The notes beneath the pieces were generated by a model. It ran no database searches. It was not told where the DNA came from and was given only the letters and a program-made list of their open reading frames with translations. DNA of 64,000 bases from Eledone cirrhosa (Eukaryota), in contig OZ024740.1 of NCBI GenBank assembly GCA_964016885.1, forward strand, positions 237,832,001 to 237,896,000, read 5' to 3'. Each line of letters opens with the position of its first letter. The stretch's first letter is position 1. Position numbers and translations under genes: made by a program. Of the stretch, positions 12,776-59,997 are shown one piece after another.

Positions 12776-12988
12776 TAGAAGTGGTTACACAACAGTTAGT
12801 TGACCATACCGAGAACAATTGTTTCACCTTAGCGGATCCTCAGCTCGCATTCCGAGCTGAGGATCCGCTAAGGTGAAACAATTGTTCTCGGTATGGTGAA
12901 CTAACTGTTGTGTAACCACTTCTACCTAACTCGTCCCATGGACTGAGTGCTCTACCACTACGGATATTACCTTCCAGTGTTCCACCAC
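12776..12988 (+). mobile_element. PLE-type 3' end with a 72-bp near-perfect hairpin, inserted in (TA)n
   Basis: Arms 12776-12847 and 12853-12924 differ by one mismatch, with a 5-nt loop; a gagtgctc motif follows, then (TA)n. Confidence 0.75.
12852..12891 (+). ncRNA. Minimal type I hammerhead ribozyme (inverted copy at about 12809-12847 on the minus strand)
   Basis: ccgag-CTGAGGA-tccgctaaggt-GAAAC aatt GTT-ctcgg; palindromic stem III, GUU triplet. Confidence 0.8.
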
Positions 12989-13069
12989 TATATATATATA
13001 TATATATATGTATACCGTCTAACCCATGCTAGCGTGGAAGATGGACGTTAAACGATGATGATGATGATG

Positions 13070-17594: not shown

Positions 17595-17643
17595 GATTCC
17601 TGATGATTTCTAAAGAATGAAACAGTTCTAGTCCTGTAGAATC
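17595..17643 (+). ncRNA. Type I hammerhead ribozyme in a ~140-bp insert between (TA)n tracts
   Basis: gattc-CTGATGA-tttctaaagaat-GAA ACAG ttctagtc CTGT A-gaatc; GUA triplet. Confidence 0.75.
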
Positions 17644-29681: not shown

Positions 29682-29729
<48 letters not shown>

Positions 29730-29732
<3 letters not shown>

Positions 29733-30495
29733 AAAAAAAAATTGTAGCTCTACATGGCTGAATACAATAAACGTAATCTGAGTTTTTCAAATATTAATAA
29801 CATTCGATTCGTTTGCAATTATGCAAGCAAGCCTCATTTTTAAAGCACTGTTCAGAGCTAGTGAAAATATATGCTATTTTCTGAAATATACAGTGACTGA
29901 TCAGCCTGATTTGCATATTAGCTGACTGTCTGATCAGTCAGATCTGCATATTAGCAGATCCACTTTTAGCCAGATTTACATATCAGCAGACTGGCCAGTC
30001 AGTTTCCTGTATAGGAGTGATAAATGGCCGGCGTTGCCAAATTCAAATAAAAAGAAAAAAAAATTTTTCGTCTACATGGCTGAATACAATAAATGTAATC
30101 TGAGTTTTTCGAATATTAATAATAACATTCCATTCGTTTGCAATTAGGCAAGCAAGCCTCATTTTTAAAGCCATGTCAGTAGAACTGGCTGAAAGTGGAT
30201 CTGCTAAGATGCAGATCTGACTGATCAGCCAGTCTGCTAATATGCAAATCAGGCTGATCAGTCACTGTATATTTCAGAAAACAGCATATATTTTCACTAG
30301 CTCTGACAGTTGGCAGGTGAACAGTGAACTGTACTGATGAAGGGTAATACCCAGAAACATTAGTGTCTGCAGTTCTGTTTACATGCCGACATAAGAGCAA
30401 GAATGAAGGGTTCATTCTACTGACATGGATTTAAAAGTGAGGCTTGCTTGCATAACTGCAACCAAATCATTTGAAAAACCCAGATTACATTTATA
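29730..30495. mobile_element. Retrozyme-like family A: more than one unit on the minus strand (HHR segment deleted), then an inverted switch to the plus strand at about 30185
   Basis: 29733-29846 is repeated at 30055-30171; 29853-29975 is the inverse of 30185-30306; flanked by (TA)n. Confidence 0.8.
30326..30375 (+). ncRNA. Canonical type I hammerhead ribozyme (GUC), family A
   Basis: gaactgta-CTGATGA-a ggg taata ccc a-GAA ACA ttag TGT C-tgcagttc; 8-bp stem I, extendable. Confidence 0.88.
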
Positions 30496-37502: not shown

Positions 37503-37553
<51 letters not shown>

Positions 37554-37557
<4 letters not shown>

Positions 37558-38232
37558 AATAGAATGAAACGAAATTTCATTTCTCACTCTTAGTACGGCA
37601 CTTACTTAAATGTAAGTATGTATACGTACATACATATATGTATACAGACGTACAGTAGTATGTATATATATATATATACATACATGCACACACATATATA
37701 TATATGCACGTATCGGTTTACCGAACATTTATTATAATGCTCGGTTTGTTTGTAAACAAACAAACAGCCCGAATTACGCCGTACAGTGTTTAGGCAACCA
37801 CGTCACCTTTTTGTTCAACACTGACACAGGAACGATGTACTAGTTTCTAGCTATCGTCAGCATCGTATACCTTCCTTCCAGATGGTTGAACGTCTGAAAG
37901 TATATACTTTCCTTATGCATATTAACGGCTGAGCAGCCTAATTTGCATATCGAGTGAGTTCAGTCGGCCGGGCACACCGAAAACGATAAATGGAATAGAA
38001 TGAAACGAAATTTGTCAGTGTTGAACAAAAAGGTGACGTGGTTGCCTAAACACTGTACGGCGTAATTGGGGCTGTTTGTTTGTTTACAAACAAACAAACC
38101 GAGCATTATAATAAATGTTCGGTAAACCGATACGTGCATGTATATATGTGTGCATGTATGTATATATATATACATACTACTGTACGTCTGTATACATATA
38201 TGTATGTACGTATACATACATATATACTTACA
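37554..38232 (-). mobile_element. Retrozyme-like family B: one 436-nt monomer with 24-nt terminal redundancy and an inverted segment
   Basis: atggaatagaatgaaacgaaattt at 37554-37577 and 37990-38013; 38013-38232 is the inverse of about 37611-37826; (TA)n flanks. Confidence 0.82.
37832..37866 (-). ncRNA. Minimal type I hammerhead ribozyme, family B
   Basis: Minus strand reads acgatg-CTGACGA-tagcta-GAAAC ta GTA-catcgt; palindromic stems II and III. Confidence 0.85.
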
Positions 38233-38267
38233 TATATATATATATATATATTTATTTATTTATATAT

Positions 38268-38836
38268 AAAAAAAAATTTCGTTCTACATGGCTGAATACA
38301 ATAAATATAATCTGTAAACAGTTCTCTTCACATGCCAACACAAGAGTAAGAATGAGGGACTTGTTTGCATAATTGCAAATGAATTGGATATTATTATTGA
38401 TATTCGAAAAACTCAGATTACATTTATTACATTCAGCCATGCAGAGCGAAATTTTTTTTATATATTTAAATGTGGCAAAGTCAGCCATTGATCGCTCGTA
38501 TACAGGAAACTGACTGGCCTATCTGCTGATATGCAAATCTGGCTGATCAGTGGATCTGCTAATATGCAGATCTGACTGATCAGTCAGTCTGCTAATATGC
38601 AAATCAGGCTGATCAGTCACTGTATATTTTAGGAAATATCATATATTTTCACTTACTCTAACAGTTGGCAGGTGAACAGTGAACTGTACTGATGAAGGGT
38701 AATACTCAGAAACATTAGAGTCTGCTATTCTGTGCACATGCCAACACAAGAGCACAAATGAGGGGCTCATTCTACTGACATGGCTTTAAAAATGAAGCTT
38801 GTTTGCATAATTGCAAACAAATCGGATATTATTATT
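38268..38836 (+). mobile_element. Retrozyme-like family A: about 1.25 head-to-tail units with a short 5' inversion
   Basis: 38319-38400 recurs at 38725-38836; HHR copy at 38681-38730; 38268-38314 is the inverse of 38415-38459; three ~33-bp internal repeats at 38521-38620. Confidence 0.82.
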
Positions 38837-39050: not shown

Positions 39051-39438
39051 GGAGGCACATGGCTTAGTGGTTAGAGCATTGGCTTTGCAATCGAAAAGTT
39101 GTGAGTTCAATTCTCAGACCAGGGGATGTGTTGTTTCCTTGAGCAAGACACTTTATTTCAGATTGCTCCAGTTTACTCAGCTGTAGAAATGAGATGATAG
39201 GGACTGGGGTTCCTATTATACCACTGCAAATTGGTCGTGGAGGTACCACGGCAAAAAAGCACCCAGCCCACACTGTAAAGTGGACGTGTAGGTGCCACGG
39301 AAAAAAAGCACCCATCACTCACTGTAAATGAGGTTGGTGTTAGGAAGGGCATCCAGCTGTAGAAATCAAGCCAGAATCAGTTCCCGTCCCACCCTTGCAA
39401 GCAGGGAAAAGCGGACGTAAAATGATGATGATGATGAT
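39051..39438 (+). mobile_element. Full-length tRNA-derived SINE with CORE-like body and RTE tail; other copies at 44745-45080(+), 58852-59025(+) and 59547-59895(-)
   Basis: Box A tggcttagtgg, box B gagttcaattc, ccttgagcaagacactt, RTE-shared ggttggtgttaggaagggcatccagc, (atg)n tail. Confidence 0.9.
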
Positions 39439-59547: not shown

Positions 59548-59997
59548 CATCATCATCATCATCATCATTTCATTTTACGTCCGCTTTTCCCTGCTTGCAA
59601 GGGGGGGACGGGAACTGATTCTGGCTTGATTTCTACAGCTGGATGCCCTTCCTAACACGAACCTCATTTACAGTGTGGGCTGGGTGCTTTTTTGCCGTGG
59701 CACCACCACGACCACTTTGCAGTGGAATGATAGGGACCGCAGTCCTATCATCTCATTTCTACAGCTGAGTAAACTGGAGCAATGTGAAATAAAGTGTCTT
59801 GCTCAAGGAAACAACACATCACCCGGTCTGAGAATTGAACTCACAATCTTTCGATTGCAAGGCCAATGCTCTAACCACTAAGCCATGTGCCTCCATATAT
59901 GTATATATATGTGTGAAGTATTTCTGTCAGAAAGGTACAGGAAAAAAGAGTGCTCTATGTAGGCTACAGAGCTTAGAGAGAGAGAGATGTATGTAAA

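What the first reader, a model, noticed from the sequence alone, without database searches (positions are those of the whole stretch)
37554..38836. Two different ~440-nt hammerhead retrozyme families share a spaced octamer / TATA-like / ribozyme module
Seen: family A (30242-30367; 38597-38722) and family B (minus, 37951-37838) have different HHR stems and bodies. Both still carry ATATGCAAATyAGGCTGmTCAG, then about 35 nt after the octamer ATATAyTTTCA, then CA..TGG.AGG, then CTGANGA about 35-38 nt after the TATA-like box. Both have monomers of about 436-445 nt and sit in (TA)n. Established: ATGCAAAT is the POU/Oct octamer used in snRNA gene enhancers, and animal non-LTR retrozymes are tandem type I HHR repeats that yield circular RNAs and are thought to use PLE machinery. 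Inference: each monomer carries its own promoter just upstream of the ribozyme, so multimeric or permuted copies can transcribe, self-cleave, circularise and re-insert. I know of no description of such a module, but cannot check the literature.
Basis: partly seen in the sequence, partly recalled or inferred. Interest (0 to 1): 0.9.

Follow-up and report, generated by a model that had tools for sequence, protein, structure and literature searches.

The report
Retrozymes with host U3-type promoter
Four related families of small, protein-free jumping repeats in this animal genome carry, just ahead of a predicted self-cutting RNA motif, DNA boxes in the same order and spacing as those in front of the host's own U3 small-RNA genes, which likely lets each repeat switch on its own transcription.

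Summary
The module is real. A and B are not unrelated: with two further families (D, G) they form one colinear group of 418-467 nt non-LTR retrozymes, roughly 30,000 modules genome-wide, inserted in (TA)n with Penelope-type inverted, two-ended footprints. Their longest invariant block is TATGCAAAT, then ATATA 41-43 nt later. The box matches the element at -76 to -78 of the host's U6, U6atac and MRP genes, but those place TATA 46-48 nt away. Host U3 genes, fetched last, have the retrozyme geometry: box -71 to -74, TCA -54 to -57, TATA -31/-32. A model built from the retrozymes alone finds it in 10 of 12 U3 copies. Predicted start: box+72/73, at the edge of ribozyme stem I. Pol II is favoured (U3 layout; T5-T10 runs inside A, D, G). 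Against: both boxes also lie in RNA hairpins, and no RNA data were available. The three window copies have one ribozyme each; two are damaged.

The parts
29719..30494 (.). Family A insertion 1: back-to-back arms between (TA)n runs (minus arms 29719-29846 and 29847-30184, plus arm 30185-30494)
29847..29917 (-). Inverted family A module cut off before the ribozyme (box, TCAGT, TATA-like only)
30241..30253 (+). Octamer box, like the host U6/MRP/U3 proximal box
30258..30269 (+). TCAGTnnnTnTA, full match to the host U1/U2/U5 element at about -56
30285..30296 (+). TATA-like box at box+43; also loop and 3' arm of a small predicted RNA hairpin
30315..30315 (+). Predicted transcription start (box+73, by U3 geometry); not measured
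   Evidence: inference
30311..30388 (+). Intact type I hammerhead: core at 30334, predicted cut after 30367 (GUC)
37550..38236 (.). Family B insertion: minus arm 38013 to 37550 (long 3' end), plus arm 38013-38236 (short 3' end), both ending in (TA)n
37937..37949 (-). Octamer box of B; also 5' arm of a predicted RNA hairpin (z -2.9 on the consensus)
37921..37932 (-). TCAG element at box+16, partial match to the host Pol II element
37895..37906 (-). TATA-like box at box+42, the U3 spacing
37876..37876 (-). Predicted transcription start of B (box+72); not measured
   Evidence: inference
37826..37878 (-). Type I hammerhead of B: core at 37860, predicted cut after 37838 (GUA); stem II lacks 8 nt found in genomic copies
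38347..38836 (+). Family A insertion 2, main arm (492 aligned nt, just over one monomer)
38521..38619 (+). Three 33-nt repeats, each with an octamer or variant; the third is the module box (38596-38608)
38640..38651 (+). TATA-like box; predicted start at 38670
38666..38742 (+). Damaged type I hammerhead: core at 38689, predicted cut after 38722; two stem I mismatches and one in stem III

Best explanation
These are non-LTR retrozymes whose every monomer carries boxes laid out like the host's U3 gene promoter, which likely makes them self-transcribing, probably by RNA polymerase II. Shown: the boxes, their spacing, their match to host promoters, the ribozyme fold, and the insertion anatomy. Inferred: a POU-type factor and SNAPc/TBP bind box, TCA element and TATA. 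Transcription starts at box+72/73, the 5' edge of ribozyme stem I, and runs through the monomer into the next. The two hammerheads cut about 45-55 nt after each start point. The released unit is permuted, so the promoter sits near its 3' end, and it is ligated into a circle. A Penelope-like reverse transcriptase/endonuclease copies the circle into (TA)n from two fixed start points. Only insertions that reach from one promoter to the second ribozyme can restart the cycle; the three window copies cannot.
For: Host U6 (top two hits and the C19 cluster), U6atac (top hit) and MRP (only hit) have the box at -76 to -78 and TATA at -30. A matrix from those five scores the four retrozyme boxes 15.3-18.7 bits, reached by 5 of 2.77 M background positions. 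Box plus TATA at 41-44 nt scores 18.7-24.0 bits (0-2 background sites), at the U6 spacing 46-48 only 9.3-15.4. U3 genes, fetched afterwards, have box -71 to -74, TCA -54 to -57, TATA -31/-32. A model built from the retrozymes alone puts its best site there in 10 of 12 U3 copies (13.1-21.4 bits) and at -76 to -78 in 5 of 5 Pol III genes, but reaches at most 7.9 bits in 12 U1/U2/U5 promoters. A matches the host Pol II element TCAGTnnnTnTA fully, G with one mismatch. TATGCAAAT (9), ATATA (5) and CTGA (4) are the longest invariant runs among 99 invariant of 394 ungapped columns. In copy sets not selected on the box it diverges 3% against 7-10% in flanks, CpG excluded (p 0.018 and 0.041, sites treated as independent). 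In D the ATATA sits in a stem arm, not a loop, yet keeps its distance from the box. T runs of 6-10 in 5 of 6 A copies read, and T5 or longer in 28 of 30 reads of one D site; the five host Pol III genes have no T4 before their terminator. U3 is Pol II-transcribed in yeast and humans (PMC7277114). 22 of 45 two-arm insertions pair a long with a short 3' end, none pair like ends. Single arms run past one monomer (up to 965 aligned nt in D).
Against: No start site, binding, cleavage or circle was observed. The box is the 5' arm of a predicted hairpin in B, G and D (z -2.9, -3.2, -4.5; A -0.2), and the TATA hairpin shows a compensated change between A/G and B, so RNA structure is under selection at the same letters. 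The four families share ancestry, so they count as one origin. The retrozyme box word is the U6/MRP form, not the U3 form (ATGTAAA), and the upstream AATTA of U3 (-98 to -104) and U1/U2/U5 (-88 to -91) is missing; the full Pol II model scores the module at most 4.3 bits against 11.9-30.2 for host genes. D lacks the TCAG element. The U3 copies are about four distinct promoters, and which polymerase reads host U3 was not shown (plants use Pol III). B has only one T4 run. Most other hammerhead families in the genome lack the box yet spread. No sequence link to the one autonomous Penelope 3' end examined.
Confidence: 0.62

Rival explanations
1. The module is a promoter, but a U6-type Pol III promoter with compact spacing. 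Read-through of the T runs in a minority of transcripts supplies the ribozyme-to-ribozyme unit.
For: G's 13-nt box is identical to that of U6 L061 and MRP. The retrozyme-only model scores host Pol III genes 10.1-19.1 bits. The long 3' insertion end lies at or next to T-rich stretches in A, D and G. The schistosome precedent is Pol III.
Against: Box-to-TATA is 46-48 in 5 of 5 host Pol III genes and 41-43 in the retrozymes. Such spacing is precisely conserved in insect Pol III promoters (PMC1761439). The Pol II-type TCAG element is in A, B and G and absent from the five Pol III genes. T5-T10 runs lie between start and next ribozyme in A, D and G.
Confidence: 0.18
2. The letters are kept for RNA reasons: two hairpins of the self-paired circle, or a binding site for the Penelope protein or a host RNA-binding protein. 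They were inherited from a common ancestor, and transcription comes from neighbouring promoters.
For: Monomers fold 67-71% paired as circles (z -7.6 to -16.3), with both boxes in local hairpins. The TATA hairpin covaries. Families are homologous. Two earlier scan notes preferred a hairpin or paired-octamer reading. Family E and the Penelope-type families lack the box.
Against: The 5' arm is invariant while its pairing partner varies, unlike ribozyme stems I and II, which change on both sides. A has no significant hairpin there but has triplicated the box. Structure alone does not predict that a retrozyme-trained model lands at -71 to -78 of 15 host small-RNA gene copies.
Confidence: 0.16
3. 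The likeness to host promoters is chance in an AT-rich genome plus shared descent.
For: TATA-like words are common here; one ancestral event explains all four families; host training sets are small (5 Pol III, 12 Pol II, about 4 distinct U3).
Against: Background frequency of the combined score is 0-2 in 2.78 M positions and 7e-7 to 1.4e-5 per position for the U3 hits. The best site in each of the four monomers is on the ribozyme strand, 87-100 nt before the core.
Confidence: 0.04

Closest known systems
Metazoan non-LTR retrozymes (Cervera and de la Pena 2020, PMC7229834: passages and Discussion read, supplement not readable; Li, Clavereau and Pollet 2026, bioRxiv 10.64898/2026.07.22.740005: parts 1-3 of 5 read)
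   Same: Short low-GC (35-38%) repeats with one type I hammerhead per unit, monomers to multimers, proposed Penelope mobilisation through circles.
   Different: Units of 418-467 nt are above the 170-400 nt of the 2020 paper but inside the 51-972 of the 2026 one. Neither main text analyses an internal promoter (2 uses of 'promoter', both T7; 0 uses) or names a cephalopod. No similarity to the one Penelope terminal region tested.
Newt satellite 2 (Coats, Zhang and Epstein 1994; Cremisi 1992; neither held, seen only as cited in PMC2220036 and PMC6765202)
   Same: Hammerhead repeat with an internal snRNA-type promoter, transcribed by Pol II. This is the working model here.
   Different: Different phylum. 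Here the promoter is a compact box/TCA/TATA unit of about 50 nt that follows this host's own grammar, and it is untested. That the newt promoter has an octamer and a PSE is my recall, not from a call.
Schistosoma Sm-alpha / Sj-alpha (as described in PMC6765202, passages)
   Same: Promoter followed by hammerhead; after cleavage the promoter ends up at the 3' end, so only tandem copies propagate.
   Different: Pol III promoter; no snRNA-type upstream boxes described in the passages read.
Host U3 snoRNA gene promoters (L350-L359) and U6/U6atac/MRP promoters (L061-L063, L131, L229)
   Same: U3: order and spacing of box, TCA and TATA. U6/MRP: the exact box word.
   Different: U3 has ATGTAAA and an extra upstream AATTA; U6/MRP have 4-5 nt wider spacing and no TCAG. 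In the retrozymes the promoter lies inside the mobile unit.
Penelope-like elements, Neptune-type pLTRs (Craig et al. 2021, PMC8557442, passages)
   Same: Tandem and inverted 5'-truncated insertions, a 3' extension on one arm, (TA)n targets, type I ribozyme with short palindromic stem III (B, D, G).
   Different: No protein-coding role seen; extension about 45-70 nt rather than 30-40; the autonomous element's 3' region examined has no octamer box.

Membership tests
Non-LTR retrozyme | Type I hammerhead in each unit | tested here: met
   Core and stems with different paired letters in four families; weak HH9 hits below gathering score; position 10.1-11.1 is a mismatch in A, B and G.
Non-LTR retrozyme | Short tandem repeat, monomers to multimers, GC under 45% | tested here: met
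   Periods 438-441, 441-444, 467; GC 35-38%; two ribozymes behind a promoter in 1/29 A, 2/29 B, 1/14 D, 0/20 G loci (D and G stretches were short).
Non-LTR retrozyme | No protein coding | tested here: inconclusive
   Longest ATG frames in three-fold concatemers are 119, 79, 20 and 173 aa and not shared; not searched against families.
Non-LTR retrozyme | Self-cleavage and abundant circular RNA | not testable with these tools
   No RNA holder listed. Arms longer than a monomer are only indirect.
Non-LTR retrozyme | Co-occurrence with, and footprints of, Penelope-like elements | tested here: met
   Young element with GIY-YIG/HTH_animal-like C-terminus in the same genome (Pfam scan blank); same (TA)n two-end pattern. 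The actual partner is not identified.
Host U3-type promoter | Box at -71 to -74, TCA at box+17, TATA at box+40 to 44 | tested here: met
   Box, TCA(G) at +16 (CCA in D), TATA-like at +41 to +43.
Host U3-type promoter | Upstream AATTA about 25-30 nt before the box | tested here: not met
   Absent in the aligned consensuses.
Host U6-type (type 3 Pol III) promoter | Box word | tested here: met
   15.3-18.7 bits, within the host range.
Host U6-type (type 3 Pol III) promoter | Box-to-TATA 46-48 nt; no T4 before the terminator | tested here: not met
   41-43 nt; internal T runs.
Host U1/U2/U5 promoter | AATTA at -88 to -91 plus TCAGTnnnTnTA at about -56 plus TATA-like | tested here: not met
   TCAG and TATA spacing met in A, G, partly B; AATTA missing; D fails.
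Any snRNA-type promoter | SNAPc/TBP binding and a start at the predicted site | not testable with these tools
   Needs RACE, reporter or ChIP.

The most novel reading that the evidence does not exclude
An animal retrozyme lineage captured or mimicked the host's U3-type housekeeping promoter and wrote it into letters that also fold as hairpins of the RNA circle. It placed the start exactly at the edge of the ribozyme, so that self-cleavage removes the cap and carries the promoter along. Newts would have reached the same solution separately, making 'host snRNA-type promoter plus hammerhead' the general reason why animal retrozymes are expressed in all tissues. Some 30,000 such promoters would be scattered through (TA)n tracts of this genome.
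Probability: 0.4. Interest if true: 0.72.

Novelty: new variant of a known kind. Interest (0 to 1): 0.55.

Why it matters
Animal retrozymes are reported as heavily transcribed in every tissue tested, yet the 2020 and 2026 papers offer no promoter. Here a specific 50-nt candidate, a single predicted start base and a polymerase prediction make that question directly testable, in a phylum far from the newt precedent. The comparison also yields this animal's promoter grammar for U6/MRP, U3 and U1/U2/U5, including an octamer at -77 rather than far upstream; that is useful for building guide-RNA vectors. I found no paper on it in two searches. It is not a new class of element.

Tried and rejected
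Whole-window Rfam gave no hammerhead. RNA evidence: no RNA holder listed; the two contig runs laid (one sample, kind unknown) only confirmed the longer stem II of B and say nothing on expression. The first consensus build for B and D drifted into TA repeats and into each other; discarded and redone with family-restricted loci. Family E (310 nt) looked by eye like a pure U1/U5-type promoter, but scored -2.1 and 1.3 bits (background 0.2-0.4% per position): not significant. A pile-up of 5' ends at the predicted start or cut site was looked for and not seen; 5' ends are scattered. No similarity between A/B/D/G/E and 1.16 kb of the Penelope 3' region except TA repeats. Two 5-kb extensions did not give a full-length Penelope element. 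Pfam was blank on the Penelope fragment. Rows left out of host models: of 20 U6 loci fetched (48 matches) 3 were used, the rest being cluster near-duplicates or copies without upstream boxes; 1 of 8 U6atac (top hit; the other 7 lack the box); 3 of 5 distinct U2, 5 of 11 distinct U1, 4 of 7 U5. The longer Pol II element and the 41-44 spacing were chosen after looking; the U3 test came after the spacing was fixed. U3 3' flanks, 7SK, RNase P, U4, U11 and U12 were not examined. Coats 1994, Cremisi 1992 and Luzi 1997 are not held. The supplement of PMC7229834 was unreadable and bioRxiv supplements are closed; they may list cephalopod retrozymes. Searches for prior description.

Full report
Observation. 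The ribozymes are type I. Stem I pairs over 6-8 bp with different letters in each family, stem II has 4-5 bp, and stem III is two pairs plus a loop in A or a four-base palindrome in B. Rfam gives only sub-threshold HH9 hits; a hand-written descriptor gave 54 hits in 600 kb of genome and 1 in a shuffle. Only the 30334 ribozyme is intact. The B copy lacks 8 nt of stem II that genomic copies and independent contigs carry, and 38689 has stem mismatches. Each window insertion has one ribozyme.

Genome context. The window lies in a 3.0-Gb animal genome. I take it for an octopus from recalled SINE motifs and earlier scan notes; this was not tested. A and B each give over 2,100 first-look candidates. 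In 140 evenly spread 10-kb stretches I counted 11 B, 3 D, 1 A and 1 G modules, which scales to roughly 30,000, a rough figure. D (467 nt, copies about 99% alike, 822 candidates) and G (about 418 nt, 84-89%, 1,559 candidates) came out of the same sample. The four are colinear homologs: B-G 70% over 410 nt, B-D 61% over 418, A-G 75% over 122, A-B 65% over 78 and 71% over 52. So the module is inherited, not convergent. Of 104 hammerhead hits in 1.4 Mb, an upstream octamer-like word was seen only in B (6 of 8), D (3 of 3) and A (1 of 1); the single G hit was truncated, and the families of 28, 27, 11, 7, 4, 3 and 2 hits had none.

Conservation. Across the four consensuses 99 of 394 ungapped columns are invariant; the longest runs are TATGCAAAT (9), ATATA (5) and CTGA of the ribozyme core (4). 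In G copies (box outside the query) and in B copies from the random sample, the box diverges about 3% against 7-10% for flanks, CpG sites excluded (p 0.018, 0.041). A has three 33-nt repeats of the box.

Host promoters. I read the upstream regions of the host's own small-RNA genes. The two best U6 hits, the U6 cluster, the best U6atac hit and the single MRP gene have TATGSWAATKAG at -76 to -78 and TATA at -30. Twelve U1, U2 and U5 promoters have instead AATTA at -88 to -91, TCAGTnnnTnTA at -55 to -58 and a TATA-like word near -30. The retrozyme boxes score like the U6/MRP ones (15.3-18.7 bits; 5 background sites in 2.77 M), but their TATA is 41-43 nt away, not 46-48. A, G and partly B also have the Pol II-type TCAG element at the Pol II distance from TATA. 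This looked like a hybrid with no host model until the U3 genes were fetched: 10 of 12 have a box variant at -71 to -74, TCA at -54 to -57 and TATA at -31/-32. A model built only from the retrozymes puts its best site at that box in those 10 (13.1-21.4 bits; background 7e-7 to 1.4e-5 per position). It does so at -76 to -78 in all 5 Pol III genes (10.1-19.1), and it reaches at most 7.9 in the 12 U1/U2/U5 promoters. The two U3 misses are low-scoring copies with altered 5' ends. The 10 hits are about four distinct promoters. By this geometry the start is the A at box+72/73, the 5' edge of the extended stem I.

Polymerase. U3 is made by Pol II in yeast and humans and by Pol III in plants (PMC7277114, passages). 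All 10 host U3 copies have a T4 at +11, and U2 has T4 and T5, while the five Pol III genes have no T4 before their terminator. A unit must be read from one start to the next ribozyme, across T6-T10 in 5 of 6 A copies read, T5 sites in D and T5 in the G consensus; that Pol III stops at such runs is established knowledge, recalled. B has only T4. I put Pol II at about three to one over Pol III.

Results against. Whole monomers are 67-71% paired, so hairpins are expected everywhere, and the box arm stays fixed while its partner varies. Dual use is the likeliest reading, but structure alone is not excluded. The upstream AATTA of host Pol II genes is missing, D lacks TCAG, and families without the box also spread. 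No transcript evidence was available.

Mobility. 3' ends fall at two fixed places, each followed by (TA)n: B near 337-347 and 404, D near 360-365 and 434, A near 269-274 and 293-317. 5' ends are scattered. Of 45 back-to-back insertions 22 pair a long with a short end and none pairs like ends. This is the Penelope footprint described by Craig et al. 2021 (PMC8557442, passages). The hammerhead at window 12857 belongs to the 3' end of a young element whose upstream frame has GIY-YIG/HTH_animal look-alikes in the Atlas (score 0.97, family on 17% of members of the top cluster). It shows the same two ends, about 66 nt apart, but no sequence link or octamer, so it is a candidate partner only. Arms longer than a monomer that run through the cut site point to a circular or multimeric template (inference). 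A promoter followed by two ribozymes was seen in 4 of 92 loci; these would be the source copies.

Literature. Non-LTR retrozymes are known (PMC7229834, passages and Discussion; bioRxiv 10.64898/2026.07.22.740005, parts 1-3 of 5); neither main text analyses an internal promoter or names a cephalopod, and their supplements could not be read. Internal promoters in hammerhead repeats are known: newt satellite 2, snRNA-type and Pol II, and the schistosome repeat, Pol III (PMC2220036 and PMC6765202, passages; the originals are not held). Six searches (listings only) showed no description of this module in a mollusc. Also seen as passages: PMC1761439, PMC6155905, PMC10886601, PMC6962438. Earlier scan notes on other pieces of this genome reached the snRNA/U6-like reading or rejected it; they are unchecked and not independent support. 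The eight notes shown for a U3-promoter look-up did not mention it.

Verdict. A real, well-supported candidate internal promoter in a retrozyme lineage, closest in layout to the host's U3 promoter. New variant of a known kind; function untested.

Noticed in passing
L074 (G000:C10:48072680-48072786, minus): A full U6 copy whose 3' T-run is joined exactly to the base after the predicted cut of another hammerhead family (F; window core at 17600; L153, L187). It suggests in-vivo cleavage and ligation to U6 before reverse transcription. The scan noted similar chimeras in another genome.
   Followed up: partly
window 12778-12990; L199-L228: 3' end of a young Neptune-like Penelope element (943 candidates, copies 96-100% alike) with a minimal hammerhead, inverted copy and two (TA)n ends; no octamer box.
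   Followed up: yes
L061, L062, L063, L131, L229, L350-L359, L081-L111, L330-L336: Three host promoter grammars: octamer at -77 plus TATA (U6, U6atac, MRP); box variant at -73 plus TCA plus TATA (U3); AATTA at -89 plus TCAGTnnnTnTA plus TATA-like (U1, U2, U5). U6, U1, U2 and U5 occur in tandem clusters.
   Followed up: yes
L160 (G000:C3:55003700-55009350), also L189, L234, L269, L291, L301, L308: Family E: 310-nt hammerhead tandem array with inverted halves in (TA)n, no octamer; a U5-like layout 77 nt before the core is not significant.
   Followed up: partly
L135 (G000:C19:7531494): A U6atac retrocopy directly abuts an inverted family A arm at its 5' end, possibly a template switch.
   Followed up: no
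L075: U6 copy fused at its 3' end to the 3' part of another common repeat.
   Followed up: no
L145, L158, L163, L183, L185, L189 and others: The commonest dispersed hammerhead family (27 hits in 22 of 140 stretches) has a long stem II and a palindromic six-base stem III; likely another Penelope terminal repeat.
   Followed up: no
window 38236-38268: The B insertion and A insertion 2 share one TA run; elements of different families pile into the same microsatellites.
   Followed up: no
window 39060-39117 (+) and 59828-59885 (-): Partial tRNA-like hits just under the gathering score, probably SINE heads.
   Followed up: no
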